From: Candidatus Poribacteria bacterium
Lineage (GTDB): Bacteria > Poribacteria > WGA-4E > WGA-3G
DNA length: 64,000 nt
Direction: 5' to 3'
Assembly (NCBI GenBank): GCA_028824685.1
Contig: JAPPCZ010000055.1
Coordinates: forward strand, 4,673-68,672
Shown here: piece after piece, positions 32,138 to 48,021 of the stretch
How the letters are laid out: every line of letters begins with the position of its first letter
Position numbering within the stretch: the stretch's first letter is position 1
The notes under the pieces: generated by a model
The model's input: the letters and a program-made list of their open reading frames with translations, nothing else
Told to the model about the DNA's origin: nothing
The model's database searches: none
Made by a program: the position numbers and the translations under genes

Positions 32138-32902
32138 TTATTTGGCTTTGAGTGCCCCCCATTGCGTGGCAAGTTTGCCTTGAGGTTCAACCGGTGTTAA
32201 TGCTTGGAGTTCTAAGGTCTCAATTTCGCCTGCTGTTAAAGCGACATTGTAAATTCGGGATTCTTCAATATGGGCGTTGAGATCACCAGGACCGCTAAGT
32301 CCATTCACATGACGTTTACCCCAAATCGCTTCTGAATCACCAGCCTCCCAAGTTCTGAGATCGCCTCTTTTGAAACTTCCCATGCTCTCACCGTTACGGT
32401 AACCCGTGATCTCATATTGGTTGTTGTCGTTCTTGTACGTGATAGCGATGAAAACCCTGTCACCAGTTTCAGGTTCAGTGACTGCATTGGGAAAATCTGC
32501 TGTACGCCTAAAATGACTGCTCCCGGGCATCCACTGTTTTACGACCCTTTCTGCCCAAACGATTCCACAAAATTGATCTGTTGACACCTCATCTAATGTG
32601 AGCGCGGAACCGTTTGTCTTCGCGTAACTATCTAAACTCACCCAAGATGCTAAGGTTAATTCTGTGATGTCAGGACCGGTATAATCCAGTGAATGTGCCC
32701 ATTTTCCATTAGCAACAACTAATTGTCCATCTTCTATTGTGGCACCGTGTAGGACAACATCTCCAAAGTTACCTGTTTCTTCCTTCGCACTATCAAATCG
32801 CCACCAACCGACGAGATTGTCTTCTTGTACTTGTGCAAAAACTGACATCGGCATGCCAACCATTAACAACACAGCACATACACAGTAAATTTTTGTTCTC
32901 AT
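32138..32902 (-). CDS. Secreted LamG/concanavalin-like domain protein with C-terminal KLATQWGALKAK tail
   Basis: Signal peptide ...MPMSVFAQVQ. LVGWWRFD...TGNFGDVVLHGATIEDGQLVVANGKWAHSLDYTGPDITELTLASWVSLD (LamG_3-like). Conserved tail. Tandem paralog of 32994-33764. Confidence 0.6.
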   Translation of the reverse strand: MRTKIYCVCAVLLMVGMPMSVFAQVQEDNLVGWWRFDSAKEETGNFGDVVLHGATIEDGQLVVANGKWAHSLDYTGPDITELTLASWVSLDSYAKTNGSALTLDEVSTDQFCGIVWAERVVKQWMPGSSHFRRTADFPNAVTEPETGDRVFIAITYKNDNNQYEITGYRNGESMGSFKRGDLRTWEAGDSEAIWGKRHVNGLSGPGDLNAHIEESRIYNVALTAGEIETLELQALTPVEPQGKLATQWGALKAK

Positions 32903-32993: not shown

Positions 32994-33764
32994 CTATTTC
33001 CTTTTCATCTTTGCCCAACGGGTAGCGAGTTTACCGCGTGGTTCTACTGGAAGATCCCCTTGGTACATAGCTTTAACATCGTCATGCGACAATGCAACGT
33101 TATAGATACGAGATTCTTCAATGTCAGCAGTTATAGAATTGCTAACTCTACCATCAACACCACCGGAATGCCTTGCTCCCCAAATAGCTTCAGCATTTTC
33201 CTTTGTCCAGGTCCTTTTATCTCCTTTTTTGAAACTCCCCATACTCTTATCGTTACGGTAGCCAGTAATCTCGTATTGACCACCATCAAGTTCATAAGTG
33301 ATGGTTAGTAATACCATCTCCCCTTCTTTGTCTTCATTCACTACGTTAGGGAAGTCATTCGTACGTCTAAAATGGCTACTACCAGGCATCCATTGTTTCG
33401 CCTGTCTTTCAGCATAAACAATCGCAACAAACTGATCAATATCCGTTCTATCCAATGTAAGGGCGGAACCGTGTGTATGTCCCAGATCATTTAATGTTAC
33501 CCAACTCGCTAAAGTTATATCAGTGATATCTGGCCCATCGTATTCAATGGAATTCGCCCAATTGTCACGCGTACAGACCAGTTGTCCATCTTTAATTTCG
33601 GCACCACGGAGGATGATTTCCCCCCAATTGCCAGTTTCCTCTGTTTTGTCATCAAAAAGCCACCAACCAACAAGGTTTTTTTCTTGCACCTGTGCAAAAA
33701 CTGACATTGAAACAGTCAACATCAGCAACACTACAAGCACACCCAAAATGCTATGAACTTTCAT
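32994..33764 (-). CDS. Secreted LamG/concanavalin-like domain protein with C-terminal KLATRWAKMKRK tail (tandem paralog)
   Basis: Signal peptide ...VSMSVFAQVQ. LVGWWLFDD..EETGNWGEIILRGAEIKDGQLVCTRDNWANSIEYDGPDITDITLASWVTLN. Same architecture and tail as the neighbouring gene. Confidence 0.6.
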   Translation of the reverse strand: MKVHSILGVLVVLLMLTVSMSVFAQVQEKNLVGWWLFDDKTEETGNWGEIILRGAEIKDGQLVCTRDNWANSIEYDGPDITDITLASWVTLNDLGHTHGSALTLDRTDIDQFVAIVYAERQAKQWMPGSSHFRRTNDFPNVVNEDKEGEMVLLTITYELDGGQYEITGYRNDKSMGSFKKGDKRTWTKENAEAIWGARHSGGVDGRVSNSITADIEESRIYNVALSHDDVKAMYQGDLPVEPRGKLATRWAKMKRK

Positions 33765-34109
33765 TTCCAGAATTCTCCTTTTTTCTTCTTATTTTGCAGT
33801 TTTAACATCTGCATTTCCTAAAAAGTTACGGGAACTATCAAATCTTTCTACCTATCATATTTTAATATGATAACAGATACTCTATTAAGAATTCAAACTT
33901 TTTAAATCTAAAGTCCACACAAGCATTTGCGAAGTCTATCCCAATAAGCGTGAGCAACTGTCAATCATAAGTATAATATAACATATCTGACAAAACGAAA
34001 CAAGATAAATTCTCATGATTCAGAATCATTACGCTTGCATAGTGGTTAGGAAGGGACAGGGCACTCTAAATCACTCTAATGGTTTTACATTTTTCATCTT
34101 AATGTGTTA

Positions 34110-34118
34110 TGATATAAT
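34110..34118 (+). promoter_or_regulatory. Candidate extended -10 promoter element (TGaTATAAT) upstream of the WD40 gene array
   Basis: tgatataat lies about 180 bp upstream of the first array gene in an AT-rich 530-bp intergenic region; no clear -35 box. Confidence 0.3.
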
Positions 34119-34297: not shown

Positions 34298-35488
34298 TTG
34301 AAAGAAAATATGAAAACTCAAAAAATTTTGATCCTATTCTTTGCGATTGTTGTTGCTGTAGTGCTTTTAATGTTTTCAACGTGGCATCAATGGAGCGACA
34401 ATCAAAAAACGACAAAGGAACGGTTGAGACCGGTTCCTCCAATTGCTGAGTTTAATCATGGTACTTCAATAAGTGATGTTGCTTTTTCTTCCACGAATCC
34501 GGAACTATTTGCAAGTGCTGGAGCAGGGAACACTGTAAAAATTTGGAACGTAAACAATCAAGATAGTCCTCAAATAACGCTGGAAGTTCAGGAAGACAAT
34601 GATGGTTCTACCAACCTGAACGGTATAGCTTTTTCACCAACAGATAAATGGTTAGCCAGTAAAACTTTCCGAACACTTGAATTTTGGGATGTTTCATCAG
34701 GTAGGAAAATTGACTTTATGAAGATTCCAGCATCTACATTCGCTATTTCTCCTGAAGGACGTTATCTTGCAACAGCGGCAAGAGAATTGAAATTGTGGGA
34801 TATTAGTAATCCAAAAGACATTAAAGGATTAGTTTTATTACCGCCAGAGATAGGTTGGAAGCCTCTATCTCTGGAAGAGATAAGTGTACCCGGTCCTACT
34901 TCTGATCCGCTAACAAAATATCACATGTTACCTAATAAATACCATCATGCAACAGACAACCAGTTTTATGATTCAATTGATTTTTCAAATAACGGCAAAT
35001 GGCTTGCAGCTGGAGGAGATGTAGATGACAAAATCAAGAAAAAAAGGATTGGTATAATAAAAGTTTGGGATTTACGAAGTAAACAACTTATCAAGCTAAT
35101 AAAGAGGGACAGAAAAGTTGCAGAAGGTGCTAAACCTAAAGAATTTATCAATAGTATCCGTGCCATCAATTTCTCGCCAGACAACCGTTTTTTTGCTGTC
35201 GCGGCTAACAATGGGTTAACTATATGGTCTCTACCTGAATGGAATATCTATCATGAAGTACTGGATCAACGCATAAGAGATATAGCGTTTTCACCAGATG
35301 GCACGATGTATGCAGTTGCAGATGTCAAGGGAATCACCCTCTGGTCAGTGGAAAATATTACCCCTATTGCTTTGCTAAGAGGAAAAGGTCTTTTTGCCAG
35401 TGTTTCAATAATTGCGTTTTCTGCAGATGGCAGCATGATTGCTGGTGGGAATTACGATGGTGTTCTTCGTCTCTGGGATTTGAGGTAA
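34298..35488 (+). CDS. N-terminally membrane-anchored WD40 beta-propeller protein, array copy 1
   Basis: N-terminal TM anchor (KILILFFAIVVAVVLLMFSTW), then the conserved linker RPVPPIAEFNHG and WD40-like blades (GNTVKIWNVNN, LEFWDVSSG, LKLWDISNP, IKVWDLRSKQLIK, LTIWSLPEWNIYHE, ITLWSVEN, GVLRLWDLR). Confidence 0.65.
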   Translation: MKENMKTQKILILFFAIVVAVVLLMFSTWHQWSDNQKTTKERLRPVPPIAEFNHGTSISDVAFSSTNPELFASAGAGNTVKIWNVNNQDSPQITLEVQEDNDGSTNLNGIAFSPTDKWLASKTFRTLEFWDVSSGRKIDFMKIPASTFAISPEGRYLATAARELKLWDISNPKDIKGLVLLPPEIGWKPLSLEEISVPGPTSDPLTKYHMLPNKYHHATDNQFYDSIDFSNNGKWLAAGGDVDDKIKKKRIGIIKVWDLRSKQLIKLIKRDRKVAEGAKPKEFINSIRAINFSPDNRFFAVAANNGLTIWSLPEWNIYHEVLDQRIRDIAFSPDGTMYAVADVKGITLWSVENITPIALLRGKGLFASVSIIAFSADGSMIAGGNYDGVLRLWDLR

Positions 35489-35492
35489 TTAA

Positions 35493-36668
35493 ATGAACGG
35501 TAAAAAAATCTTTCTGTTGTTCTTAGCTATTATAGTTGCTGGTGTTCTGTTAGCGTCTTCAACTTGGCGGCAGTGGAACGACAATCAAAAGACTCTTTTG
35601 GAACGAACAGGACCGATTCTACCTATTGCAGAATTTAATCATGGTGCCATGGTTGATGACGTTGAATTTTCTCCATCAAATCAAGATATCATTGCAAGTG
35701 TAGGTGATGACAATAACATAAAAATTTGGAACACAAACAACCCAAGTACCCTTACGAAAACCCTGCATGATAATGAAGAAACTCTCGTCTCATTAGATTT
35801 TCTAAACAACGGAGAATTGCTTTTATGTAAAGGGCTGCATAGGAAGATGATATTATGTGATGCATCTTCATGGGAAAGAATAATTTTACCTCAGGAACAG
35901 TACTGTTGGGATGCTGAAATTTCACCATCTGCGGATTACCTTGCGAACGTCTATTCGCAACGATTAGAGTTGTGGGACATTCGGAATCCAAATGAGATCA
36001 CTGAGATAACCGAAATAACAGAGATTCATCATACTAAATATGCCAATTCCATGCGATGTGCTGACTTTTCACCTAACGGAAAATGGCTTGCCATTGGATT
36101 TGAAAACGGTGACATAAAATTTTGGGATTTAGAACAAAAGCAATTTATCAAGACGCTATCCGTTCCACATGAAAGTCACGAGCACTTGAAAGATATAATC
36201 TTTTCGCCTGATGGACGTTGGATTGCCGCTGCTGAACATAGCAGTTTGTCATTATGGGATGTTCAGCAAAGTCGACGTGTAAAGTTATTGGAGGATACCT
36301 ACATAGGTTTTCTCCGAGATGTAAAGTTTTCTCCTGATGGAAGATATATCGGCATAAAAACCCAGGATAAAATGAACAGATATACTATATGGAGTTTACC
36401 AGAAGTGCAAATCTACCATGAGGGGAGTGGTCGATACGTCACTGATCTTGCATTTTCGCCTGATGGGAAGATTCTTGCAATTTCAGATGCTGGTGAGGTA
36501 ACTCTTTTATCTATTGAAAATCTTACACCTATTGCCCTGCTGCAAGGTAAAGGCTTTTTAGGTGGAGCTATGGAACTTTCATTTTCACAAGATGGTAGTA
36601 TGCTTGCAGGTGGAGGTTATGGTGGTGTTCTTCGTCTCTGGGATATAGGGAAACTAAATGAACGGTAA
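35493..36668 (+). CDS. N-terminally membrane-anchored WD40 beta-propeller protein, array copy 2
   Basis: MNGKKIFLLFLAIIVAGVLLASSTWRQWNDNQKTLLERTGPILPIAEFNHG (identical to copy 3 over about 50 aa). Blades end in GVLRLWDIGKLNER. The 3' end overlaps the next start (ctaAATGAACGGTAA). Confidence 0.65.
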   Translation: MNGKKIFLLFLAIIVAGVLLASSTWRQWNDNQKTLLERTGPILPIAEFNHGAMVDDVEFSPSNQDIIASVGDDNNIKIWNTNNPSTLTKTLHDNEETLVSLDFLNNGELLLCKGLHRKMILCDASSWERIILPQEQYCWDAEISPSADYLANVYSQRLELWDIRNPNEITEITEITEIHHTKYANSMRCADFSPNGKWLAIGFENGDIKFWDLEQKQFIKTLSVPHESHEHLKDIIFSPDGRWIAAAEHSSLSLWDVQQSRRVKLLEDTYIGFLRDVKFSPDGRYIGIKTQDKMNRYTIWSLPEVQIYHEGSGRYVTDLAFSPDGKILAISDAGEVTLLSIENLTPIALLQGKGFLGGAMELSFSQDGSMLAGGGYGGVLRLWDIGKLNER

Positions 36669-37836
36669 AAAAATCTTTCTGTTGTTTTTAGCGATTATAG
36701 TTGCTGGAGTTCTGTTAGCGTCTTCAACTTGGCGGCAGTGGAACGACAATCAAAAGACTCTTTTGGAACGAACAGGACCGATTCTACCTATTGCAGAATT
36801 TAATCATGGTGTCCGGATCCATGCTATTGCTTTTTCACCAAGAAATCCTAACCTCATTGTTACTACGGGTGAAGACTACACCATAAAAGTTTGGGATAGG
36901 CACAACACACAAGCACCAGAAGTTGTATTGACCGGTATGCTTGCGCATGATGGTAGTGGGGACACTTATTCTGTTGAATGTATATCGTTTTCACCAACAG
37001 GTGAATGGCTTATAAGAAAAATAAATTGGATGCTGGAATTCTGGGATGTGTCTTCAAAAAAGAAATTGAATTCTTTTGATATCGGTCCTTCAAATGCAGC
37101 TATTTCTCCTGCCAATCACTTACTCGCAACTGCCTTTAACGATGTAAGACTATGGAATATCAGCAACCCAAATGAAATAATAGGAATGTTTGTGTTACCA
37201 CCACTGATAGGCGAACAAGCATTATCACACGAAGATGTGAGATTGTCTAAACATCATCACACTGATCTTGCAGTTAAACATCACAATGAGACGCTTAACC
37301 AAAATTATCGTATGGTTGATATCTCAAATGATGGAAAGTGGGTAGCCGCAGGAGGAGGTATATATGACAAAACGATCAGAAGATACTTTGATAAGGTAAA
37401 AGTCTGGAACTTACAAAGCAAGCAACTTGTTAAGATTATAGAGAGAAAGATACCGGATGACCGTAGACCTGGAGAATATCGTCAAGATATTCAATTTATT
37501 TGTTTTTCCCTTGACAACCGTTTTTTTGCCGTCGCAGGTGAGAGTGAATTGACTATTTGGTCTTTGCCTGAGTGGAATATCTATCACAAATTACCATGTC
37601 AACACATCAGCGATATGGCGTTTTCGCCAAGTGGAAAGATATTTGCCATTGTAGATGTGAAGGGAATAACCCTCTGGTCAGTAGACAATATGACCTCAAT
37701 TGCATTACTTAAGAGAAAAAGTCTTTGGGACAGTGTTACGAAAATTGCGTTTTCACCTGAGGGTAACATGCTCGCGGGTACTGAATATGATGGAATTCTG
37801 AGTCTTTGGGATTTGAGGGAACTAAATGAACGGTAA
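36658..37836 (+). CDS. N-terminally membrane-anchored WD40 beta-propeller protein, array copy 3
   Basis: Same N-terminal 50 aa as copy 2. Blades (TIKVWDRHN, LEFWDVSSK, VRLWNISNP, VKVWNLQSKQLVK, LTIWSLPEWNIYHK, ITLWSVDN, GILSLWDLRELNER). Overlaps the next gene's start. Confidence 0.65.
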   Translation: MNGKKIFLLFLAIIVAGVLLASSTWRQWNDNQKTLLERTGPILPIAEFNHGVRIHAIAFSPRNPNLIVTTGEDYTIKVWDRHNTQAPEVVLTGMLAHDGSGDTYSVECISFSPTGEWLIRKINWMLEFWDVSSKKKLNSFDIGPSNAAISPANHLLATAFNDVRLWNISNPNEIIGMFVLPPLIGEQALSHEDVRLSKHHHTDLAVKHHNETLNQNYRMVDISNDGKWVAAGGGIYDKTIRRYFDKVKVWNLQSKQLVKIIERKIPDDRRPGEYRQDIQFICFSLDNRFFAVAGESELTIWSLPEWNIYHKLPCQHISDMAFSPSGKIFAIVDVKGITLWSVDNMTSIALLKRKSLWDSVTKIAFSPEGNMLAGTEYDGILSLWDLRELNER

Positions 37837-39046
37837 AAAAGTGATCTTGTTGTTTTTAGCGATTATAGTTGCTGGAGTTCTCTTAGCATTTTCTACATGG
37901 CGGCACTGGAACAACAATCAAAAAACGATACTCGAAAGAATGAGGCCGATTCCTCCAATTGCTGAGTTCAATCATGGTAGCTCAATAAGAAGTATTGCTT
38001 TTTCTCCCAAGAATCCAGACCATATTGCAAGTGCAGGAGAGGGGAATAAAGTAAAGGTATGGAACATAAACAACACAAAATTACCTGAAAAGGTGCTGAT
38101 AGCTCACCCTCCCAAAGAAGGTGGTATTCCTTTATTTGTAAATTTCATCACTTTTTCGCCTACAGGGAAATGGTTTGTCAGTAATTGCATTCGGAAGTTT
38201 TCATTTTGGGATATCTCCTCATGGAAGGAAATTAATTCTATAGAGATACCCGCAGGAGATTTAGTTATTTCTCCAAAGGGCACATATTTTGCATCAGCAT
38301 CTAACGATGTAAAATTGCTGAAAATTAGTGATCCAAATAAAGTGTGCGAAATTATCTTATTACCACCTAAGATCGGCTGGGAATCTGTTGCACTGGAAGA
38401 TTTAAATATAGCAAATTCTAAATCTGAAAGAACCATAATTAAAAATCAAAATACCATTACAAAATATAGAAATGCATCGTTGACTCAACAATATAAAGCA
38501 ATTGACTTTTCACATGATGGAAAATGGATCGCTGCTGCTGGACAGATGTATGATTTTACCAGTGAAAAATGGACCCACAAAATAAAAATATGGGATTTAC
38601 ATCGGAAACAGCTATTTAAGATTATTGAGAGATATATTACCGAAAAACCCCAAACCAAGAATGACACAAATCGATTATATCAGCCTTTTTACTCCAGTGA
38701 TATTCGATCAATTAAGTTTTCTCCTGATAATCGTTTTTTTGCTGTTGGGGCTCGGAATGGGTTGACGATATGGTCTATACCAGAGTGGAATATTTACCAC
38801 GAAATCTTGCATCAACAAATATGGGATATCGCCTTTTCACCAGATAGTACGATGTATGCAGTTACAAATGTTAAAGGGATAACCCTATGGTCGGTAGAAA
38901 CTCTCACGCCTATCGTGCTGCTTACGGGATCGGGTTTATACGGTAATAGCCTAATTGAGTTTTCACCCGATGGCAGTACGCTTGCTGGCGGCGGCATGGA
39001 TGGGGTTGTCCGACTTTGGGATGTGAGGAATATAAATGAAAAATAA
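37826..39046 (+). CDS. N-terminally membrane-anchored WD40 beta-propeller protein, array copy 4
   Basis: MNGKKVILLFLAIIVAGVLLAFSTWRHWNNNQKTILERMRPIPPIAEFNHG. Blades (KVKVWNINN, FSFWDISSW, IKIWDLHRKQLFK, LTIWSIPEWNIYHE, ITLWSVETL, GVVRLWDVRNINEK). Confidence 0.65.
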   Translation: MNGKKVILLFLAIIVAGVLLAFSTWRHWNNNQKTILERMRPIPPIAEFNHGSSIRSIAFSPKNPDHIASAGEGNKVKVWNINNTKLPEKVLIAHPPKEGGIPLFVNFITFSPTGKWFVSNCIRKFSFWDISSWKEINSIEIPAGDLVISPKGTYFASASNDVKLLKISDPNKVCEIILLPPKIGWESVALEDLNIANSKSERTIIKNQNTITKYRNASLTQQYKAIDFSHDGKWIAAAGQMYDFTSEKWTHKIKIWDLHRKQLFKIIERYITEKPQTKNDTNRLYQPFYSSDIRSIKFSPDNRFFAVGARNGLTIWSIPEWNIYHEILHQQIWDIAFSPDSTMYAVTNVKGITLWSVETLTPIVLLTGSGLYGNSLIEFSPDGSTLAGGGMDGVVRLWDVRNINEK

Positions 39047-41060
39047 AAACATCTTACTTCTATCAGTAATCTTGATTATAGCAGTTGTCGGTGTTGTATT
39101 GTATTTCATTTTACGTCTGCCGCCGCAGGAATTGTTCCCACAGATATTCGCGCAGCTACCTGAAAAACCGAAACTCATAGCGGAATTCAATCATGGTGCA
39201 ACGCTTGATTCTGACGCGATTCCTTTTGAGGGTTTTACTCTCACAGACGCTACACCAATTTATTCTGTCGCCTTCTCCCCGATAGATGCTTCTCTCATAG
39301 CAAGCGTTAATGCAAACGGTTCCATAAAGTTATGGAACATAAACAACACCAAAGAACCTGTAAAAATTCTTAGACATCCTGGTGTATATCCAATCATCCG
39401 TTTTTCTCCCACAGGTGAACTGCTTGCAAGTGCGGGTTATGGAAAACTGGTATTTTGGGATGTTGCTTCTGGAACAAAGCTTAATTCACTTGAAGCAGCT
39501 GGTGGAGATTTTGCTCTTTCCCCGAATGGTCAACTCGCGACAACCCCGGATGATGTGAAACTCTGGGATATTCGGAATCCAAAGGAGATAAAAGAAGTAG
39601 CGACACTACCGTTCGACGAAGAGCATAAAATCAGAAGTTGGGCATGTGCAGTAGCTATCTCAACAGATGGTAAATTGATTGCCGCTGGATACGCCAATGG
39701 TTATGTGAATGTTTGGAATCTACAGACCAAACAGCATGTGAAAACTTTAAAAACACCCTTTATAGAAATGAGATATTTAAAGTTTTCAACTAATCGCAAA
39801 TACTTGGTCAGTGGAGGTAATGAATGGAAACATAGCGGCCCGAGAGGTTACGTTATGTGGGAATTACTAAGTTGGCAACGTCACGGCGAAGTGCAACGTG
39901 GACACATCGAAAATTTGGCGTTCTCACCAGACGGAAAGATATGTGCAAGTGCCAATCATCAGTCCTATTCTGGAAGAGGGGTAGAACTCTGGACAGTTAA
40001 GAGCGGTGCACCAATTACTGTATTACCAACTGCAAGGGATGTATCGTTTTCGCAAGATGGGAAAAGGATCGCAAGCGGTAACGATGATGGCATTGTCCAA
40101 TTATGGGAACTTACGTCTCAGCAATTAGCGTTAGCCTCTATCCCCACCGACATGGTGCGGTTAATTTATGTCCCGTCAGAAGATGAAGAACCTCCGCCAG
40201 ACATTACAGTAAAATTAGATAAATCAATAAGAGAGGCACAAGACTTCTACGCGGATGAGATGGAACGACACGGTTTCGGCAGAAAAACTTTTACGTTTGA
40301 AACTGATGAGAATGGAAAAGCCAAGATATATCATGGTAAATACAATCAAACCAATATCGATCTGTCAAACGACATCTGGCTAATAATTGGAGGAGATGAA
40401 TCACAGATTTTCCCGTCAGATCCGACATCACTCTATATTGATCATTATGATACATTCTCTTATACTCGTAATGACGGATATTCCACTAAAAACAATGTAT
40501 GGAGAGAGAAAATAAAAGGAATCATCAAGGCAACACATGTTCAGGCATCCGTTAAATTCCTTGATCGGAAATCTGTTGCGTATGCTCTTAGAAGTGCTTT
40601 TAGTGTGCCTGGTATCCACACAGAGCCTGAGCCAAACGCTTTAAAACGTCTTTTCTCCCGTGTTAACGACAAGATGCCTTGGGGAAAAAGATGGGCAAAA
40701 CTGTCCAGATGTGAGGCTGAATGGTTAGATAAAAGCCGCTACTTTAACCCAAACCAACCTTTTTTTGATAAAGCACCAAAGATGGAGATGCGTGTATCCG
40801 TTCCTAAAGATAACGGTCTGCGGCACTTCATATTTGATGTTGCAGATGAAGATGGTATGCACCATGCACAACTGTTTGTAATTCAAAGGTGGAAATTGAA
40901 GTTTCATAATTGCCAAGCTCTAAACGGTAAACAAGAAGCAACCATTGCATTTGAAATCACAGATGCGAAAATAAAGACGGTTAAACTTCGGATGATTGAT
41001 ATGCATGGAAACATCGCAGCACGTGATTTCCAAATTCAGGAAAAAACAGATGAAAAATAA
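39036..41060 (+). CDS. N-terminally membrane-anchored WD40 beta-propeller protein with additional about 270-aa C-terminal domain of unknown function, array copy 5
   Basis: MKNKNILLLSVILIIAVVGVVLYF anchor. PEKPKLIAEFNHG linker. Blades (SIKLWNINN, LVFWDVASG, VKLWDIRNP, VNVWNLQTKQHVK, GIVQLWELTSQQ). C-terminal domain VRLIYVPSEDEEPPPDITVKLDKSIREAQDFYADEMERHGFGRKTFTFETDENGKAKIYHGKY ... PWGKRWAKLSRCEAEWLDKSRYFNPNQPFFDK ... MIDMHGNIAARDF. Confidence 0.65.
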   Translation: MKNKNILLLSVILIIAVVGVVLYFILRLPPQELFPQIFAQLPEKPKLIAEFNHGATLDSDAIPFEGFTLTDATPIYSVAFSPIDASLIASVNANGSIKLWNINNTKEPVKILRHPGVYPIIRFSPTGELLASAGYGKLVFWDVASGTKLNSLEAAGGDFALSPNGQLATTPDDVKLWDIRNPKEIKEVATLPFDEEHKIRSWACAVAISTDGKLIAAGYANGYVNVWNLQTKQHVKTLKTPFIEMRYLKFSTNRKYLVSGGNEWKHSGPRGYVMWELLSWQRHGEVQRGHIENLAFSPDGKICASANHQSYSGRGVELWTVKSGAPITVLPTARDVSFSQDGKRIASGNDDGIVQLWELTSQQLALASIPTDMVRLIYVPSEDEEPPPDITVKLDKSIREAQDFYADEMERHGFGRKTFTFETDENGKAKIYHGKYNQTNIDLSNDIWLIIGGDESQIFPSDPTSLYIDHYDTFSYTRNDGYSTKNNVWREKIKGIIKATHVQASVKFLDRKSVAYALRSAFSVPGIHTEPEPNALKRLFSRVNDKMPWGKRWAKLSRCEAEWLDKSRYFNPNQPFFDKAPKMEMRVSVPKDNGLRHFIFDVADEDGMHHAQLFVIQRWKLKFHNCQALNGKQEATIAFEITDAKIKTVKLRMIDMHGNIAARDFQIQEKTDEK

Positions 41061-42879
41061 AAAAATATTACTCTTTTTTTTAATTTTGGCAGTAGCAGTT
41101 GTTGGGATTGTAGTATATTTCATCTCACGTCCGCCGCAGCATCAGGAATTGCTCCCACAGACATTCGCGCAGCTGCCTGAAAAACCGAAACTCATAGATG
41201 AATTCCATCATGGACTCTGGGTTTATTCCGTAGCAATTTCACCTACTGATCCATCCCTTGTTGCGGGTGTAGATCAAGATGGCACTATAAAGCTATGGAA
41301 CAGAAACGACACAAAGAAAATATTCAAATTCTTCAGACATCCTGAAAAAATTCCGTCCATTGGTTTCTCACCCATAGGTAAATTGCTTGCGTGTGCTGGC
41401 TATGGAACACTTACAATATGGGATGTTGTTTCAGGAACAAAGATCAATTCACTTGAGACATCATACCGTCAATTCGCTTTTTCGCCAGATGGGCAAAAAC
41501 TGGTGACAATTCGGGATAACAGAAAAGGAATACATGAACCAGGAGTGAAAATCTGGGATATCCGGAATCCTAAGAAAATAACGGAAATTGCTATCATCAA
41601 TATACCACATGCAACCAAAGGTTCGACATGCGCGATTGACATTTCGCCCGATGATAAATGGATCGCTGCCGGATATTCTAACGGAACTATACACGTATGG
41701 GATTTAAGTACCAAACAACTTGTCAAAACATTAGAAACATCTTTTTATCAGATGGATTATTTAAAGTTTTCCCCTAACAACAAATATATGGTCGCTGGTG
41801 GACGTGATCAGGAGGGGTATATCAATTATTCTGTGAAGTGGTTCATCATGTGGGAATTGCTAAGTTGGCAACGTTTGGGTGAGGTGCTTCGAGGAAATGT
41901 TGAAAATATGGTGTTCTCCCCAGATGGGAAGATATGCGTGGGGGCAAATGATTGGTCTCATCACGGACGGGGTGTTGAAATCTGGTCAACTACGAATGGT
42001 GAGCCAATTTCTTCATTACCAACGGAGGCAACGGATGTTTCATTTTCACATGATGGCAACCTTCTCGCCACTGGAGGCAAGGATGGTTTTGTTCGAGTGT
42101 GGGAGCTTACGCAATCGCAATTAAATTTAGACAAAGTCCGCAACGATGTCGTGCGATTAATTTACTACTTACCGAAAGATAAAGAACCCTCCCCAAACAT
42201 TACACAAAAAATAGATAAAACTATAAGAAAGGTTCAAAAGCACTACGCAGATGAGATGGAACGACACGGTTTCGGCAGAAAAACTTTTACTTTTGAAACC
42301 GATGAGAATGGAAAAGCCAAGATATATCACATGAAAGAAATACCGATCGGAGCACATGATTTGCAGTTGAACGATATCTGGCTTGTTTTTGTTGATTATG
42401 AGAACGATATTCAGTCAGTTCTTATTGATAACATGTTAAGACAGTTCAAATCAGCTGGGCGCAATTATCATCATTATGATAATACATTCACATTCCCTAC
42501 AAGGAGGAAGGGGGTTTTTAAAGACAAAATTGGGATGTATGATATTAAGGGATTCACAGGAGATGGCAGTTTTGTCTATGCTAAAAAGAAGGGCATTGAT
42601 TGGAAATTAATAGTATACTCACTTAAGCATAAATTTGACGTATTACATCGGAGACATCATTTACCTAAGTATGAACCTAACGTAGTTAAAAGGGTTTTCA
42701 AGGGTATTAACAGTATTATGCCATGGGGCAAGAGTTGGGTGAAATTGTCTAAGTGTGAAGCAGAATGGTTGGATAAGAGTCGTTTCTTCAACCCAAACCA
42801 ACCTTTCTTTGACAAACGACCAGATATTGAAATAAGCATAATAAAAACTGATATTGGTTCAAAAAAAAATTCCAGTTAA
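41050..42879 (+). CDS. N-terminally membrane-anchored WD40 beta-propeller protein with C-terminal extra domain, array copy 6 (reading frame interrupted at an A9 tract; the C-terminal 84 codons continue in another frame to 43130)
   Basis: Start at MKNKKILLFF (overlaps the copy 5 stop; the track ORF begins at 40996). Paralog of copy 5 throughout (same ADEMERHGFGRKTFTFETDENGKAKIYH block; PWGKSWVKLSKCEAEWLDKSRFFNPNQPFFDK). The frame breaks at the A9 run at 42861-42869. Confidence 0.6.
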   Translation: MKNKKILLFFLILAVAVVGIVVYFISRPPQHQELLPQTFAQLPEKPKLIDEFHHGLWVYSVAISPTDPSLVAGVDQDGTIKLWNRNDTKKIFKFFRHPEKIPSIGFSPIGKLLACAGYGTLTIWDVVSGTKINSLETSYRQFAFSPDGQKLVTIRDNRKGIHEPGVKIWDIRNPKKITEIAIINIPHATKGSTCAIDISPDDKWIAAGYSNGTIHVWDLSTKQLVKTLETSFYQMDYLKFSPNNKYMVAGGRDQEGYINYSVKWFIMWELLSWQRLGEVLRGNVENMVFSPDGKICVGANDWSHHGRGVEIWSTTNGEPISSLPTEATDVSFSHDGNLLATGGKDGFVRVWELTQSQLNLDKVRNDVVRLIYYLPKDKEPSPNITQKIDKTIRKVQKHYADEMERHGFGRKTFTFETDENGKAKIYHMKEIPIGAHDLQLNDIWLVFVDYENDIQSVLIDNMLRQFKSAGRNYHHYDNTFTFPTRRKGVFKDKIGMYDIKGFTGDGSFVYAKKKGIDWKLIVYSLKHKFDVLHRRHHLPKYEPNVVKRVFKGINSIMPWGKSWVKLSKCEAEWLDKSRFFNPNQPFFDKRPDIEISIIKTDIGSKKNSS

Positions 42880-43130
42880 CTGCATCTGATGATGATGGAA
42901 TACATCAACTTCAACTGTTTGTCACTGAGAAATCAGAAAAACATTATTGGTTACACAAACTTCAAGGGTGTCAAGCACTAAACGGTAAAAAGAAGGCGAC
43001 CGTTGAATTTGGAATATCCAATCCCAAAATTGAGGAAGGTGAAATTCGGATGATTGATATGTATGGAAATATCGCATCACGAGAATTCAGATTTTTGGAG
43101 AAAACATCAGAACAAGATAAAGAACCGTAG
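42874..43130 (+). pseudogene. Out-of-frame continuation of array copy 6 (C-terminal about 84 codons homologous to the copy 5 C-terminus)
   Basis: Translation QLTASDDDGIHQLQLFVTEKSEKHYWLHKLQGCQALNGKKKATVEFGISNPKIEEGEIRMIDMYGNIASREFRFLEKTSEQDKEP aligns with copy 5 FIFDVADEDGMHHAQLFVIQRWKLKFHNCQALNGKQEATIAFEITDAKIKTVKLRMIDMHGNIAARDFQIQEKTDEK. Adding one A to the A9 run would restore a single ORF 41050-43130. Confidence 0.6.
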
Positions 43131-43152: not shown

Positions 43153-43665
43153 ATGTCTAAAAGAATTGCAATCTTCCCAGCAAGTTTCGACCCGATCACG
43201 CTCGGTCATGTGGACTTAATTGATCGGGTTTGCAAACTTGACGTGTTTGATGAACTCGTCATCGTTATCGGTGTGAACCCGGCAAAACAGGAACGGTTCA
43301 CGATTGAAGAACGCATCCAGATGCTTGACGAGGTCATCAAACCTTATCCGAAAGCTACTATTGCGGGGGACGCTGGGTTGATGGTGCATTACGCGCAAAC
43401 ACGTGGGGCATGTGCTATCATTCGCGGACTACGCGAAATCTCCGATTTTGAATGGGAATTCAAAATGGCACGGATGAATCAACAAATCGCTCCAGAAATT
43501 GATACGCTCTTTATGGTTGCAAATAAACAATACGCACATATCAGCTCAACACTCGTGATGGAGGTTGTGGAGATGGGGCAAGGCAAATTGAGTGAAGAGA
43601 AATTGTTGGAGATGGTGCCACCGGTTGTCGTTGAATTTATCAAGCAGAAATATCATGTCCAGTAA
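43153..43665 (+). CDS. coaD: Phosphopantetheine adenylyltransferase
   Basis: Start at MSKRIAIFPASFDPITLGHVDLI with the RBS aaaggag; the track ORF is extended upstream to 43054. H/TxGH nucleotidyltransferase motif and ISSTLVMEVVEMG, typical of CoaD. Confidence 0.9.
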   Translation: MSKRIAIFPASFDPITLGHVDLIDRVCKLDVFDELVIVIGVNPAKQERFTIEERIQMLDEVIKPYPKATIAGDAGLMVHYAQTRGACAIIRGLREISDFEWEFKMARMNQQIAPEIDTLFMVANKQYAHISSTLVMEVVEMGQGKLSEEKLLEMVPPVVVEFIKQKYHVQ

Positions 43666-43705: not shown

Positions 43706-46051
43706 CTAAAACCGATTATCTAAACTCACGCTTACATTGAAGCCCGGTGCATTCACGCCAGACCCATGTGGACGATACCGACGATCCAACAGGTTTTCAA
43801 GTGATAATGTCAAACGCGTATAGTCAAAGAGTTTAACACCACAGCGTACGTTGAGTGTCCACCATCCCGGTGTGCCTGCATCAACTGCATTGCTGTTGTC
43901 GTCAAATTCAACTTCCTGAGGGTTGCGTGTTTTTCCTTGTATCCGCGGGTCGCGGATGTCACTCCGATTTAGGCGTCTCTGTTCCGCAGCACCCCGCATA
44001 AACAACGTTGCCCAATACTGCGTATTTACCGGTTCCCACTGGATTCCTACAATACCGTTCAAAGGTGGTTCTCTCCGAGTGCGTGCTTCCCAAGGTTTAT
44101 CAGGATCGGGTTCTACACCGTTAATCAAAAGCACTTCCCCACGCAGCAACGCAGCATTCCCATAGATTGACAATGAAGAACCAATCGGTACCACTCCTGC
44201 TAACTCAACTCCCTGAAACTGCGCCTCATCAACGTTGTCAAACACGAGTACGTCAATACCTTCGTATTCCTTGATTAGGTCTTGAAGGAGTTTAGGAATT
44301 TCGTCTTCTTTGTATGCCTCTTGGACAGGTCTACGCGTAACTAAACCGTTGACCCTGCTGTGGAACAGTGTTAATGCACCACGAAAAGAGGCATGTTTCG
44401 CCTTGAGACCTCCCTCAACTGTCCACGAAGTCTCCGCTTCAAGGTCGGGACTCGGTGCCGTTACCCCCTCATTCGTCACCTCTACTGCTGTTGTATCGTT
44501 CAACGATGGCGCGCGAAACGCTGTGGCAAAACTACTCACAAAATTTAGATAATCTATCAAACCGACAACTATCCCCGCACTTCCTGTCAGACTACTGTCG
44601 GATTCATTGAATTCATCAAAAACCTCAGATCGTAGAGACAGGTCCGCATCGGTTTGATAAAGTGTTGCTCGTCCGCCAAGGATAAGTTCAACTCGTTCAT
44701 GTATCGTTATTTCATCTTGTAGGAACAGACTTGCATCCCAAAACTGCGAACCGTTGATAAATCGTCCAAAATTCTCATCAACAGTTTCTTTCCCTGTCTC
44801 AAGATCAGTTTCGACAGTCCGGCTTTGCAGCATGTCTAAGTAAAAATCACCACCACCCACCAAACGTTGCTGTGGAAGAATACTACTAACTATCTGCGCG
44901 CTTAAACCGATGGTATTAACCGTATCGTCCCGCTGTCTACGTGAAGTCGCATCGCGTTTTACCTCGTTCCGTCCTTCTTTCTGTCGGTGAAAAGAACCTG
45001 TGAATCTATATAGGTCAATGCTGGAGATTTCAGGATTCGCTACATAGTTAACGTATACAAGGTCGCGATTTTGCGGTTCAAAAAAGAATTCACTAAACTC
45101 CTGTGGTGCGATTTTATCATAACGTGGTGTTTGTGGTTGCCGCCACATTTGATAAGCAACATTGAGAGTTCTTCTTTCGTCAATTTGGTAAGCAACTTTA
45201 GCATCGGCATCGTAGGCTCTCCAACCCAGGGGGCCTTCATTGTCTACAAGCCATCTATCAGGAATATCATCTTTTGACAACTCACTCACTTCATCATAGT
45301 CATAAAGTTGCACACCGCTCGGCATTTCGTCTACTATTTCAAATTTACGGTTTTTGTAGTGAAGGTCGTATCCACCGCCAGGATTTAGATCTCCGTAGAA
45401 TCGCACTCCACCGCCAACACTGAATCCAAATCGTCTTTGGCTGCCAGTCACCTCTAACCTACCGATTCGTTCCTGTGTAGCGGTGGTATAGCGAGCAAGA
45501 AGTCGAGGATGTATTTCCCATGTTTCCTGCGCTGGATTTAGCGGGATTGCTTTCGTAAAGAAACTCACAACGCCCCCCATGGCACCGCTCCCATATAGTA
45601 CAGAACTTGATCCGAGTAGCACCTCTGCGCGGTCAAGGTTTTCCGGTGCTATGGTTGCAGTATATTGGTTTGGACCAGAGCGAAATGTTGAGTTATTGAG
45701 TCGAACCCAATCGACTTGAATTACTGTTTGATAGCCGGTTAAACTTCGGAGCATCGGTGAACCTTGACCGACAGTTGTTTGCTGTGCGATGACACCAACA
45801 GAATCCTGAAGTAGATTGGACGCTATATCTGCATTGGTCCGTTCTAATTGTTTTAAATTGAGTACAGTGATAGTGTTCGGTGTTTTAAATGGTTCTTTCT
45901 CGGCACGTGTGGCTGTCACCGTTATCTCCTGCATTTCCACAACGTTTTCGTCATTATATTCTTTAAGTTTCACTTTTGCGCCTGCATGGGGTTGCCAAAT
46001 TACAAAGAGTGCTATACTAAAAATAAGAAAAAGATAAAAGGGCTTTTGCAT
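43706..46051 (-). CDS. TonB-dependent outer-membrane receptor
   Basis: Signal peptide. Plug domain (ITVTATRAEKEP...VLNLKQLERTNADIASNLLQDSVGV...GSPMLRSLTGYQTVIQVDWVRLNNS). Long beta-barrel. C-terminal ...SVSLDNRF terminal aromatic. Confidence 0.85.
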   Translation of the reverse strand: MQKPFYLFLIFSIALFVIWQPHAGAKVKLKEYNDENVVEMQEITVTATRAEKEPFKTPNTITVLNLKQLERTNADIASNLLQDSVGVIAQQTTVGQGSPMLRSLTGYQTVIQVDWVRLNNSTFRSGPNQYTATIAPENLDRAEVLLGSSSVLYGSGAMGGVVSFFTKAIPLNPAQETWEIHPRLLARYTTATQERIGRLEVTGSQRRFGFSVGGGVRFYGDLNPGGGYDLHYKNRKFEIVDEMPSGVQLYDYDEVSELSKDDIPDRWLVDNEGPLGWRAYDADAKVAYQIDERRTLNVAYQMWRQPQTPRYDKIAPQEFSEFFFEPQNRDLVYVNYVANPEISSIDLYRFTGSFHRQKEGRNEVKRDATSRRQRDDTVNTIGLSAQIVSSILPQQRLVGGGDFYLDMLQSRTVETDLETGKETVDENFGRFINGSQFWDASLFLQDEITIHERVELILGGRATLYQTDADLSLRSEVFDEFNESDSSLTGSAGIVVGLIDYLNFVSSFATAFRAPSLNDTTAVEVTNEGVTAPSPDLEAETSWTVEGGLKAKHASFRGALTLFHSRVNGLVTRRPVQEAYKEDEIPKLLQDLIKEYEGIDVLVFDNVDEAQFQGVELAGVVPIGSSLSIYGNAALLRGEVLLINGVEPDPDKPWEARTRREPPLNGIVGIQWEPVNTQYWATLFMRGAAEQRRLNRSDIRDPRIQGKTRNPQEVEFDDNSNAVDAGTPGWWTLNVRCGVKLFDYTRLTLSLENLLDRRYRPHGSGVNAPGFNVSVSLDNRF

Positions 46052-47404: not shown

Positions 47405-47650
47405 ATGAATCAAAGAGAGGCTCTGTTTGAAAAAGCGCAACAAAACCCAAACGGATTGAAGTATTCCGAGTTTGAACGGCTTATGCGCGGATGTGGATGG
47501 ACGCAACGCCGACAAAGAGGTAGTCATCGGATTTGGTATTCTCCCAAAGGATATAGATTATCAATTCAACCGAACAAGTCAATGGCTAAAGGTTACCAAG
47601 TAAGGCAATTTTTAGCACAATACAACAAGGAAAATGAAGATGAAGAATAA
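47405..47650 (+). CDS. hicA: HicA-family toxin (type II TA)
   Basis: 81 aa. LKYSEFERLMRGCGWTQRRQRGSHRIWYSPKG matches the HicA/YcfA double-stranded-RNA-binding-like fold with the conserved GSH motif. Confidence 0.7.
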   Translation: MNQREALFEKAQQNPNGLKYSEFERLMRGCGWTQRRQRGSHRIWYSPKGYRLSIQPNKSMAKGYQVRQFLAQYNKENEDEE

Positions 47651-47993: not shown

Positions 47994-48021
47994 TGAATAT
48001 GAGCAACTCGGGAGATTTTAA

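What the first reader, a model, noticed from the sequence alone, without database searches (positions are those of the whole stretch)
34298..43130. Head-to-tail array of six paralogous membrane-anchored WD40 propeller genes with translationally coupled ATG/stop overlaps
Six consecutive same-strand genes encode proteins with the same design. Each has a short N-terminal TM anchor (MNGKKIFLLFLAIIVAGVLLASSTW or MKNKKILLFF...), a conserved linker (..PIAEFNHG) and about 7 WD40-like blades. Every junction preserves the same overlap: the last codons LNER/INEK plus the stop overlap the next MNGKK/MKNKK start (ctaAATGAACGGTAA, ataAATGAAAAATAA). The N-terminal 50 residues of copies 2 and 3 are identical, while the central blades have diverged, consistent with recent duplication or gene conversion plus diversification of the presumed binding surface. 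Copies 5 and 6 add a roughly 270-aa C-terminal domain of unknown function. Such eukaryote-like repeat-protein arrays are typical of host-associated or symbiotic bacteria.
Basis: seen in the sequence. Interest (0 to 1): 0.8.

Follow-up and report, generated by a model that had tools for sequence, protein, structure and literature searches.

The report
Membrane-anchored WD40 array with dead glycopeptidase domains
A sponge-symbiont (Poribacteria) genome carries six back-to-back genes for membrane-tethered WD40 propeller proteins, two of them fused to a catalytically dead relative of the mucin-cutting enzyme OgpA, and this fast-changing array sits in the same slot just upstream of coaD in 48 of the 71 related Poribacteria loci examined.

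Summary
The six paralogous genes are real and were assembled identically in three other public metagenome samples. Each encodes a 20-21-residue N-terminal hydrophobic anchor, a conserved linker and a WD40 propeller. The c4 model has 7 blades; c2 probably has 8.

- Only 4 of 5 junctions have the 11-nt ATG/stop overlap. c1 ends 4 codons early.
- c6 is broken by a frameshift at an A9 run.
- The copies are old (dS saturated, orthologues in other species) and under purifying selection (dN/dS 0.2-0.4). They are not recent duplicates.
- A sharp gene-conversion tract does join c2 and c3.

New findings:
- More distant Poribacteria relatives keep HELGHxFGLxHD.
- The array lies directly upstream of coaD (usually a 22-nt gap) in 48 of 71 Poribacteria loci.
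- Copy number and content differ even where flanking proteins are 91-99% identical.

Best reading: a co-transcribed set of envelope-anchored, non-catalytic binding proteins derived from WD40-metzincin ancestors. The ligand is unknown. This is a new variant of known kinds, of moderate interest.

The parts
34084..34118 (+). Two overlapping sigma-70-like promoter matches (10/12, TG-extended), about 190 nt upstream of c1. Candidate operon promoter.
   Evidence: The total number of matches in the region is not above the shuffled expectation, so this is only a positional hint.
34310..35488 (+). c1: short type (392 aa), signal-anchor plus WD40 propeller. Ends at a premature TAA 4 codons before the ancestral ..LNER stop.
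35493..36668 (+). c2: short type (391 aa). Has an extra WD repeat and no helical insert, so probably 8 blades. Orthologues are L006 gene 4 and L004 gene 1.
36658..37836 (+). c3: short type (392 aa). Orthologue is L006 gene 5 (79% aa identity, dN/dS 0.27).
37826..39046 (+). c4: short type (406 aa). Model shows helix 3-38 (membrane segment plus stalk), 7 blades with a velcro strand at 46-49, and a helical insert at about 180-220 between blades 3 and 4.
39036..41060 (+). c5: long type (674 aa). Anchor plus 7 WD repeats (by sequence) plus an OgpA-like domain (40110-41057) made of a metzincin-like lobe and a beta-sandwich. Zinc motif degenerate (Y-A-x-x-S; third His and the Met-turn Met retained).
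41050..42879 (+). c6: long type, annotated ORF of 609 aa truncated by a frameshift. Zinc motif degenerate (Y-S-x-x-H..H).
42861..42869 (+). A9 homopolymer where the c6 frame breaks. A +1 or -2 change restores the full 692/693-aa protein.
   Evidence: the same A9 in L001, the one other assembly that covers this position
42870..43130 (+). Out-of-frame tail of c6 (86 codons, beta-sandwich part of the C-domain), still conserved. Its stop lies the canonical 22 nt before coaD.
   Evidence: E 1.2e-38 to the C-domain HMM; pN 0.03-0.13 against the L006 orthologue
35425..35646 (+). Gene-conversion tract, copy A (end of c1 plus the first 154 nt of c2).
   Evidence: 92% over 222 nt; 3 of 153 nt differ after the ATG, 103-nt identical run
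36590..36811 (+). Gene-conversion tract, copy B (end of c2 plus the first 154 nt of c3).
36658..36668 (+). 11-nt stop/start overlap ATGAACGGTAA. The same design occurs at 37826-37836, 39036-39046 and 41050-41060. A GAGG/AGGG Shine-Dalgarno-like motif lies 6-8 nt upstream, inside the last WD codons.
   Evidence: An 11-nt overlap is found at 54 junctions in other Poribacteria.
43153..43665 (+). coaD (phosphopantetheine adenylyltransferase), 22 nt after the corrected c6 stop. Conserved downstream partner and probable last gene of the operon.
43706..46051 (-). TonB-dependent receptor, convergent with coaD. A conserved neighbour of the slot (context, not shown to be functionally linked).

Best explanation
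The locus is one probable operon, from a promoter near 34.1 kb through coaD, in a sponge-associated Candidatus Poribacteria genome. It encodes six paralogous type-II (N-in) signal-anchored proteins whose WD40 propellers face the periplasm or cell envelope.

Four are propeller-only (short type). Two (long type) add a domain homologous to the Akkermansia O-glycopeptidases OgpA and AMUC_1438, consisting of a metzincin lobe and a beta-sandwich. That domain has lost the first zinc-binding His and the catalytic Glu, and in c5 also the second His, so it cannot work as a zincin peptidase. These proteins most likely act as non-enzymatic binders or scaffolds for protein or glycoprotein ligands at the envelope, possibly as hetero-oligomers made in fixed ratios through translational coupling.

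Evolution: the slot directly upstream of coaD originally held one or two active WD40-metzincin genes (HELGHxFGLxHD). In the lineage of this genome these genes lost catalysis, multiplied, and gave rise to short forms. The array now evolves by gain, loss, reordering and gene conversion between the conserved junctions, while each surviving copy stays under purifying selection.

Shown: gene anatomy, homology, loss of the motif, synteny, turnover, selection regime. Inferred: membrane topology, co-transcription and coupling, a binding function, the ligand.
For: Anatomy and topology:
- Searches give the gene anatomy.
- Each protein has a single 20-21-aa hydrophobic run with a positive N-flank, modelled as a long helix at residues 3-38.
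- The c4 propeller has 7 blades.

Homology of the C-domain:
- Model pLDDT 78, pTM 0.76.
- phmmer against PDB: E 8e-6.
- Profile against PDB: E 1e-14 to both, aligning the family motif with OgpA MAHELGHGLNLPH.

Loss of the zinc site:
- 0 of 73 close family members have HExxH. The motif column equivalents are Y59/H10 and E20/L12/V11.
- More distant relatives keep it (77 of 79), including AHELGHAFGLxHDF plus the Met-turn.
- OgpA H205A/E206A is the inactive mutant used to trap substrate (PMC7518263).

Operon features:
- SD-like GAGG lies before each internal ATG, with 11-nt overlaps.
- No terminator-like site was found between c6 and coaD.
- The gap to coaD is 22 nt.

Conservation and turnover:
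- All 71 best loci are Poribacteria or unnamed MAGs.
- Arrays hold 1-8 genes, and 54 junctions have the 11-nt overlap.
- coaD lies directly downstream in 48 of 71 loci, with a 22-nt gap in 28.
- Flanks are 91-99% identical while array genes are 36-89% identical against L010.
- Orthologue tree.
- dN/dS is 0.22-0.36 between orthologues, and the c6 tail is still conserved.
- Conversion tracts.
Against: - No experimental data on expression, localisation or binding.
- The N-terminal segment could be a cleaved signal peptide in c2-c4 (..LLA|SS), which would give soluble periplasmic or secreted proteins.
- The segment that aligns with OgpA's glycan-binding Y116 is deleted in c5/c6. The W199 equivalent is kept in c6 but is Arg in c5. 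An OgpA-like O-glycan pocket is therefore not demonstrated.
- c6 is frameshifted and c1 is shortened, which shows some decay.
- The promoter and terminator scans are not above chance.
- Synteny with coaD and the TonB-dependent receptor may simply be inherited gene order.
- dS between paralogues is saturated, so paralogue dN/dS values are rough.
Confidence: 0.55

Rival explanations
1. Classical eukaryote-like effector proteins: the WD40 proteins are released from the bacterium and act on or inside sponge cells, for example to block phagocytosis, as shown for ankyrin-repeat proteins of sponge symbionts.
For: - The organism is a sponge symbiont.
- WD40 proteins are reported as abundant in Poribacteria (PMC3909097).
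- Eukaryote-like repeat proteins from sponge microbes can confer evasion of phagocytosis (cited in PMC8163846).
- The strong gene-content turnover resembles host-interaction loci.
Against: - The 20-21-residue uncharged N-terminal segment, modelled as a long helix, looks like a membrane anchor and not an export signal.
- There is no T9SS C-terminal sorting domain hit.
- WD40 repeats were not enriched in sponge-associated versus seawater MAGs, and were the only repeat family not among the lateral transfers.
- The genome encodes TonB-dependent receptors, implying an outer membrane between the anchor and the host.
Confidence: 0.1
2. Regulatory or partner subunits of an active enzyme: the short and dead-long proteins hetero-oligomerise with a catalytically intact WD40-metzincin paralogue encoded elsewhere in the genome. 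They tune its substrate range, or act with the neighbouring TonB-dependent receptor in periplasmic processing of imported glycopeptides.
For: - Some Poribacteria arrays mix intact and degenerate long genes with short genes, for example L031 (L+ S L-), L035 and L038 (S L- L+), L034 (L+ S L- L-).
- The TonB-dependent receptor is a conserved neighbour.
- The overlapping junctions would favour fixed stoichiometry.
Against: - No HExxH-bearing member lies in this 64-kb window, and the rest of the genome was not searched.
- No interaction evidence exists.
- The receptor is convergently transcribed, and its linkage may be inherited gene order.
Confidence: 0.2
3. Decaying remnant: after losing catalysis the array is drifting towards pseudogenes and has no present function.
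For: - The zinc motif is lost.
- c6 is frameshifted and c1 is truncated by 4 codons.
- Copy number is highly variable.
Against: - Five of the six ORFs are intact.
- dN/dS is 0.22-0.36 between orthologues at dS of about 0.4-0.5.
- The degenerate helix keeps a conserved A-[YH]-x-L-[KR]-x-x-F pattern in 73 sequences.
- The family persists across dozens of species.
- Even the c6 tail beyond the frameshift is conserved.
Confidence: 0.08
4. c5 and c6 are still peptidases that use a non-canonical metal site (retained third His, Tyr in place of the first His, other acidic residues).
For: - The third His and the Met-turn Met are retained. c6 keeps two of the three His ligands.
- The fold is preserved.
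Against: - The general-base Glu is replaced by Ala (c5) or Ser (c6).
- The H205A/E206A change inactivates OgpA.
- No His or Glu is conserved across the family at these columns.
Confidence: 0.05

Closest known systems
OgpA (Amuc_1119) and AMUC_1438 O-glycopeptidases of Akkermansia muciniphila (unclassified metzincin-like family, partly covered by Pfam PF12044)
   Same: - Two-domain fold: a metzincin-like lobe plus a beta-sandwich.
- Sequence homology at profile E 1e-14.
- Shared N-terminal motif ..VYFL..D..P......L......Q.FY..EM.RHG(F/Y)G.
- More distant Poribacteria relatives keep HExxHxxGxxH and the Met-turn.
   Different: - c5/c6 lack the first zinc His and the catalytic Glu. c5 also lacks the second His.
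- There is a 10-12-aa insertion before the Met-turn, and the segment aligned with the glycan-binding Y116 is deleted.
- The domain is fused behind a membrane anchor and a WD40 propeller, whereas OgpA is a free secreted enzyme with a signal peptide.
WD40 eukaryote-like repeat proteins reported as abundant in Poribacteria (Kamke et al. 2014, PMC3909097; Robbins et al. 2021, PMC8163846)
   Same: Same phylum and same Pfam domain (PF00400). Membrane helices or signal peptides are frequent on poribacterial repeat proteins.
   Different: - Those papers count domains. In the passages I searched by keyword they do not describe this family, its fusion to an OgpA-like domain, the tandem arrays, the conserved overlap or the slot upstream of coaD.
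- The T9SS C-terminal sorting domain suggested there for WD40 proteins was not found here.
Prokaryotic 7-bladed WD40 domains such as PkwA of Thermomonospora curvata (PDB 5yzv)
   Same: Best Foldseek match of the c4 model (E 1.9e-19, TM-score 0.83 on the target). A canonical 7-blade propeller.
   Different: - PkwA's propeller follows a Ser/Thr kinase domain in a cytoplasmic protein (from my own knowledge).
- Here the propeller follows a signal-anchor and has a family-specific helical insert between blades 3 and 4.
Engineered inactive O-glycoproteases used as mucin/O-glycan binders (OgpA H205A/E206A, marketed as GlycOCATCH)
   Same: The same two key residue positions (first His and the Glu) are replaced, and the fold is retained.
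   Different: That is a laboratory mutant with an intact glycan pocket. Here the loss is natural and ancient, and the pocket residues are only partly conserved, so glycan binding is unproven.

Membership tests
WD40 repeat beta-propeller (Pfam PF00400) | Several ~40-residue WD repeats scoring above the Pfam gathering threshold | tested here: met
   PF00400 scores 78-112 bits against a cut-off of 27 for all six proteins
WD40 repeat beta-propeller (Pfam PF00400) | Closed propeller of 4-stranded blades with velcro closure | tested here: met
   The c4 model (pLDDT 87.6) has 7 blades, with N-terminal strand 46-49 completing the last blade. Foldseek top hits are 7-bladed WD40 proteins. Only c4 was modelled.
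OgpA/AMUC_1438-type metzincin O-glycopeptidases | Catalytic alpha/beta lobe followed by a beta-sandwich domain | tested here: met
OgpA/AMUC_1438-type metzincin O-glycopeptidases | Detectable sequence homology | tested here: met
   phmmer E 7.8e-6. Profile E 1.1e-14 (OgpA) and 1.9e-14 (AMUC_1438). Pfam PF12044 is weak, at 22-23 bits against a cut-off of 27.
OgpA/AMUC_1438-type metzincin O-glycopeptidases | HEXXHXXXXXH zinc-binding motif with a catalytic Glu (H205, E206, H209, H215 in OgpA) | tested here: not met
   c5 has Y-A-L-R-S......H and c6 has Y-S-L-K-H.....H. 0 of 73 close relatives have HExxH.
OgpA/AMUC_1438-type metzincin O-glycopeptidases | Met-turn beneath the metal site | tested here: inconclusive
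   A Met aligns with the IMSYG Met of the intact relatives (KMPWG in c5, IMPWG in c6), but it follows a 10-12-aa insertion. Its geometry in the model was not inspected.
OgpA/AMUC_1438-type metzincin O-glycopeptidases | Glycan-binding residues (Y116, F166, K198, W199, N235, Y236 of OgpA) | tested here: inconclusive
   The segment aligned with Y116 is deleted in c5/c6. The W199-equivalent position is W in c6 and R in c5. N235/Y236 lie outside the aligned region.
OgpA/AMUC_1438-type metzincin O-glycopeptidases | O-glycan-dependent cleavage N-terminal to glycosylated Ser/Thr | not testable with these tools
   Needs an enzyme assay
Eukaryote-like proteins of sponge symbionts acting on the host | Eukaryote-type repeat domain encoded by a sponge symbiont | tested here: met
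   WD40 domain. Candidatus Poribacteria; one of the assemblies carrying the contig appears, by its name prefix, to come from the demosponge metagenome study (inference).
Eukaryote-like proteins of sponge symbionts acting on the host | Delivery to, or contact with, host cells and an effect on them | not testable with these tools
   The sequence suggests an inner-membrane anchor instead
T9SS (Por) cargo with a C-terminal sorting domain (TIGR04183), proposed for poribacterial WD40 proteins | Match to the CTD model at the C-terminus | tested here: not met
Translationally coupled overlapping genes | Stop of the upstream gene overlaps the start of the downstream gene, with a ribosome-binding motif inside the upstream ORF | tested here: met
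   Four 11-nt overlaps, with GAGG/AGGG/AGGA 6-8 nt before each ATG. 54 such junctions occur in other species.
Translationally coupled overlapping genes | Downstream translation depends on upstream translation | not testable with these tools
   Needs reporter fusions
Phase-variable contingency gene (homopolymer switch), considered for c6 | Tract length varies between cells or strains | tested here: inconclusive
   L001, the only other assembly that reaches the tract, also has A9; L002 and L003 end upstream of it. Read-level data are not available.

The most novel reading that the evidence does not exclude
The coaD-upstream array is a conserved, rapidly reshuffled cassette locus found across many Poribacteria genomes. 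Its products are natural "dead-enzyme lectins": envelope proteins that use a WD40 face and an inactivated O-glycopeptidase groove to capture mucin-like O-glycoproteins of the sponge matrix or of prey. The repertoire in each strain would tune host or substrate specificity. The A9 tract in c6 would act as an on/off switch, by slippage, for one member.
Probability: 0.15. Interest if true: 0.75.

Novelty: new variant of a known kind. Interest (0 to 1): 0.5.

Why it matters
Poribacteria are among the dominant, still uncultured sponge symbionts. Their many WD40 proteins have been counted but not explained.

This analysis does four things:
- It turns six "hypothetical proteins" into a defined family with a membrane anchor, a propeller and, in two members, a pseudo-O-glycopeptidase domain.
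- It links the family to the recently founded OgpA/AMUC_1438 peptidase family.
- It shows a clear path from active enzyme to non-catalytic paralogues.
- It identifies one fixed chromosomal slot where gene content changes far faster than the flanks.

This yields testable targets: binding of sponge glycoproteins, metal content, and operon expression together with coaD. It also offers a marker locus for strain-level variation in sponge microbiomes. If the proteins prove to be glycoprotein binders, they would be natural counterparts of the engineered inactive mucinases used as glycoproteomics reagents.

Tried and rejected
- Recent tandem duplication: rejected. dS is saturated between copies and orthologues exist in other species.
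- Positive selection on blades: sliding-window pN/pS on paralogues and orthologues gave no window with clear pN>pS. Proper codon-model tests were not possible.
- Misassembly: rejected. The sequence is identical in three other assemblies, and equivalent arrays occur on Mb-scale contigs and chromosome-level assemblies.
- T9SS C-terminal sorting domain: no hit.
- Anti-phage defence: no meaningful PADLOC hit.
- RNA elements and tRNAs in the window: none.
- Pfam alone did not identify the C-domain, giving only sub-threshold PF12044.
- The afdb50 fold library was unavailable.
- Cluster look-up for names of the HExxH-bearing relatives returned none.
- Attempt to tie intact versus degenerate forms to free-living versus sponge-associated Poribacteria: the named MAGs I could place (PCPOR, SB06xx, PNGco) are all sponge-associated, so no contrast could be drawn.
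- Error corrected: the coaD query was translated one base out of frame (43154 instead of 43153). The positions were usable, but the identities and gaps were wrong. They were recomputed.
- Two "HExxH+" calls (one gene each in L030 and L032) were false positives from an HEGCH in the beta-sandwich.

Full report
**1. What is in the sequence**

Between 34.3 and 43.1 kb the + strand carries six consecutive ORFs. With the most plausible ATG starts they are:

| Copy | Coordinates | Length (aa) |
|---|---|---|
| c1 | 34310-35488 | 392 |
| c2 | 35493-36668 | 391 |
| c3 | 36658-37836 | 392 |
| c4 | 37826-39046 | 406 |
| c5 | 39036-41060 | 674 |
| c6 | 41050-42879 | 609 |

- All six score far above threshold for Pfam WD40.
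- Pairwise amino-acid identity is 43-54% within c1-c4, 56% for c5/c6, and 33-38% between the two groups.
- Each protein begins with two or three basic residues followed by a single uncharged run of 20-21 residues. There is no other hydrophobic segment.
- In the AlphaFold model of c4 (pLDDT 87.6) this run is part of a continuous helix at residues 3-38. It is followed by the conserved PIAEFNHG linker, whose strand closes a 7-bladed propeller.
- The best structural matches are ordinary 7-bladed WD40 domains, with the bacterial PkwA domain first.
- c1, c3 and c4 share a helical insert between blades 3 and 4.
- c2 lacks that insert but has one extra WD repeat, so it is probably 8-bladed. This rests on sequence only.

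**2. Corrections to the observation**

Four of the five junctions have the 11-nt overlap ATGAAnnnTAA. At the c1/c2 junction the homologous sequence is present, but c1 has acquired a TAA four codons early, leaving a 4-nt gap.

c6 is interrupted:
- After an A9 run (42861-42869) the frame hits TAA at 42877-42879.
- The remaining 86 codons of the domain continue in another frame to TAG 43128-43130.
- That tail matches the C-domain HMM at E 1e-38.
- It differs little from its orthologue in another species (pN 0.03-0.13).
- Its stop lies exactly 22 nt before coaD, the canonical spacing elsewhere.

The frameshift is therefore recent, or is bypassed by slippage. The same A9 is present in L001, the one other assembly that reaches this position, which argues against a random consensus error.

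**3. Not an assembly artefact**

Contigs from three other ENA assemblies are 100% identical to the window across the array. Equivalent arrays lie on Mb-scale contigs and on many assemblies labelled as chromosomes.

**4. Organism**

c4 and c5 are 100% identical to OXI67_10585/10590 of a Candidatus Poribacteria MAG. One of the assemblies carrying the contig (sample SAMN13943212, assembly name prefix ROBB21-1) appears to belong to the coral-reef demosponge study; this link is my inference from the prefix. The window also encodes other repeat proteins typical of this phylum: LamG, HEAT-PhyH, PD40 and another WD40.

**5. Age and selection**

Nei-Gojobori estimates between the six copies give saturated dS (1.1-2.3) and dN/dS of 0.25-0.39.

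A neighbour-joining tree with the arrays of three other genomes pairs c2, c3 and c6 with individual genes of locus L006, and groups c5 with the two long genes of L004; c4's pairing with L006 gene 2 is weaker (57% identity). The gene order differs. For the clear orthologue pairs:

| Pair | aa identity | dS | dN/dS |
|---|---|---|---|
| c2 / L006 gene 4 | 79% | 0.46 | 0.23 |
| c3 / L006 gene 5 | 79% | 0.44 | 0.27 |
| c6 / L006 gene 6 | 76% | 0.40 | 0.36 |

- No 30-codon window shows convincing pN>pS.
- The copies are old and individually constrained. "Recent duplication" and "hypervariable blades" are not supported.

Gene conversion is supported:
- c2 and c3 differ at 3 of the first 153 nt and at 50 of the next 153 nt, with a 103-nt identical run.
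- The tract extends about 68 nt into the preceding gene.
- c5 and c6 share an 87-nt stretch with 4 differences.

**6. The C-terminal domain**

Pfam gave only a sub-threshold PF12044 hit. A model built on 72 homologues (pLDDT 78, pTM 0.76) matches two structures far better than anything else:

Sequence searches agree: phmmer E 8e-6 and a family profile at E 1e-14 to both, with the family motif aligned to OgpA's MAHELGHGLNLPH.

According to the published structures:
- OgpA has a catalytic domain followed by a beta-sandwich.
- It binds zinc through H205, H209 and H215, and uses E206 as the base.
- The H205A/E206A mutant is the inactive form used to trap substrate (PMC7518263).
- OgpA and AMUC_1438 are described as founders of a large unclassified peptidase family (PMC9513282).

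**7. Loss of the catalytic site**

In an alignment with HExxH-bearing relatives:

| Position (OgpA) | c5 | c6 |
|---|---|---|
| First His (H205) | Tyr | Tyr |
| Catalytic Glu (E206) | Ala | Ser |
| Second His (H209) | Ser | His |
| Third His (H215) | retained | retained |
| Met of the Met-turn | retained | retained |

- A 10-12-residue insertion precedes the Met-turn.
- A stretch of about 17-20 residues that aligns with OgpA's glycan-contacting Y116 is missing.
- None of the 73 closest family members has HExxH. The helix instead keeps the conserved pattern A-[YH]-x-L-[KR]-x-x-F.

An exhaustive search of 1.84 billion representative proteins found 1034 related clusters:
- Nearly all the more distant ones that carry the N-terminal FY..EM..HGFG-like motif retain HExxH about 100-120 residues after it (77 of 79).
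- In Poribacteria genomes they read AHELGHAFGLxHDF followed by (I/L)MSYG.
- Several of these intact relatives also have an N-terminal WD40 propeller. Others have LRR or dockerin modules.

The long-type proteins here are therefore an ancient pseudo-enzyme branch of a repeat-domain-plus-metzincin family.

**8. A conserved, fast-changing slot**

A scan of one genome per species returned 312 matching stretches. The best 71 loci are all Poribacteria or unnamed MAGs. Classifying their ORFs with local HMMs shows:
- Arrays of 1-8 short and long genes.
- The 11-nt overlap at 54 junctions (18 short-short, 22 short-long, 14 long-long).
- A 4-nt overlap at 7 junctions.

In 48 of the 71 loci coaD follows directly on the same strand. 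The gap is 22 nt in 28 cases and 21 nt in 6. A TonB-dependent receptor lies beyond it.

- Loci whose domain is only 31-36% identical to c5 carry one or two intact (HExxH) long genes in that slot.
- Loci closer to ours carry short and degenerate long genes.
- A few arrays mix both types.

Against locus L010 the flanking proteins are 91-98.6% identical. The best matches of c1-c5 are 89, 36, 49, 53 and 64%. Arrays in genomes sharing these flanks range from S-L to S-S-S-S-L-L. Gene content in the slot therefore turns over much faster than the neighbourhood.

**9. Expression signals (sequence-level only)**

- Each internal ATG is preceded at 6-8 nt by GAGG, AGGG or AGGA. At four of the five junctions this motif is encoded by the last W-D-x-R/G codons of the upstream gene; the c5/c6 motif lies in the C-domain tail.
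- The two best promoter-like matches lie about 190 nt upstream of c1.
- No terminator-like site lies between c6 and coaD. Neither scan exceeds chance overall.
- Together with the fixed 22-nt gap, this suggests one transcript ending with coaD and translational coupling along the array. Neither is shown.

**10. Interpretation**

Best-supported reading (confidence about 0.55 overall; high for anatomy and evolution, low for function): an operon of inner-membrane-anchored, outward-facing WD40 propeller proteins. Two carry an inactivated OgpA-like domain and act as non-catalytic binders or scaffolds at the envelope. They derive from active WD40-metzincin ancestors that occupied the same slot. The array is maintained by birth-and-death evolution plus gene conversion.

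Rival readings:
- Partner or regulatory subunits of an intact paralogue, or of TonB-linked uptake (0.2).
- Secreted host effectors (0.1).
- Neutral decay (0.08).
- Non-canonical active peptidases (0.05).

**11. Comparison with the literature**

- Abundant WD40 domains in Poribacteria are known (PMC3909097).
- WD40 repeats were not enriched in sponge-associated versus seawater MAGs (PMC8163846).
- My full-text searches did not turn up a description of this family, its OgpA-like pseudo-enzyme domain, the overlapping-junction arrays or the coaD-linked slot. The library is incomplete, so prior description elsewhere cannot be excluded.
- I rate the finding a new variant of known kinds, of moderate interest.

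**12. Caveats**

- Topology, co-transcription, coupling and binding are all inferred.
- Only c4 and the c5 C-domain were modelled.
- Paralogue dS is saturated.
- The locus survey is limited to ±10 kb and to the best 71 of 312 hits.
- coaD identities came from an out-of-frame query and should be ignored in favour.

Noticed in passing
window 42861-43130: The c6 frame breaks at an A9 run, yet the 86-codon tail is still well conserved against its orthologue and ends at the canonical 22 nt before coaD. This could be a very recent inactivation, transcriptional or translational slippage, or a phase switch.
   Followed up: partly
window 32138-32902 (-) and 32994-33764 (-): Two tandem paralogous LamG (Laminin_G_3) proteins with signal-peptide-like N-termini sit just upstream of the array on the opposite strand. 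In related genomes the first is 92-97% conserved, while the second is only 62-64% conserved in four of five (91% in L010).
   Followed up: partly
window 1441-2508 (+): Another, more distant WD40 protein (355 aa; 104 bits to the short-type HMM) lies outside the array. I did not check whether it has an anchor.
   Followed up: no
window 24789-25904 and 25873-26925 (+): Two adjacent PD40/DPPIV_N-like beta-propeller ORFs overlap by 32 nt. This may be another small paralogue pair of periplasmic propellers.
   Followed up: no
window 28170-29699 (-): An ORF combining a PhyH (phytanoyl-CoA dioxygenase) domain with HEAT repeats. Another PhyH gene lies further downstream.
   Followed up: no
window about 47405-48000 (L001 19580-20168): A HicA-toxin gene followed by a 117-aa ORF overlapping it by 11 nt. 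This is probably a HicAB toxin-antitoxin pair.
   Followed up: no
L015, L019, L020, L028, L039, L046 (upstream end of their arrays): Proteins of about 700 aa with an anchor and a degenerate C-domain, but an N-terminal part that scores poorly against the short-type WD40 HMM (labelled 'C-'). This may be a third architecture in the same slot.
   Followed up: no
P0364; P0275, P0347: The same peptidase-like domain, with HExxH intact, also occurs behind LRR repeats (P0364). In P0275 and P0347 it occurs together with dockerin, and P0275 also has a FlgD-Ig module. This suggests a modular 'repeat domain plus OgpA-like metzincin' design.
   Followed up: partly
window 43153-43665 and related loci: The +1 frame translation of coaD still gave 45-86% identity across species in tblastn. 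This reflects strong nucleotide-level conservation of the gene next to a highly variable array.
   Followed up: partly
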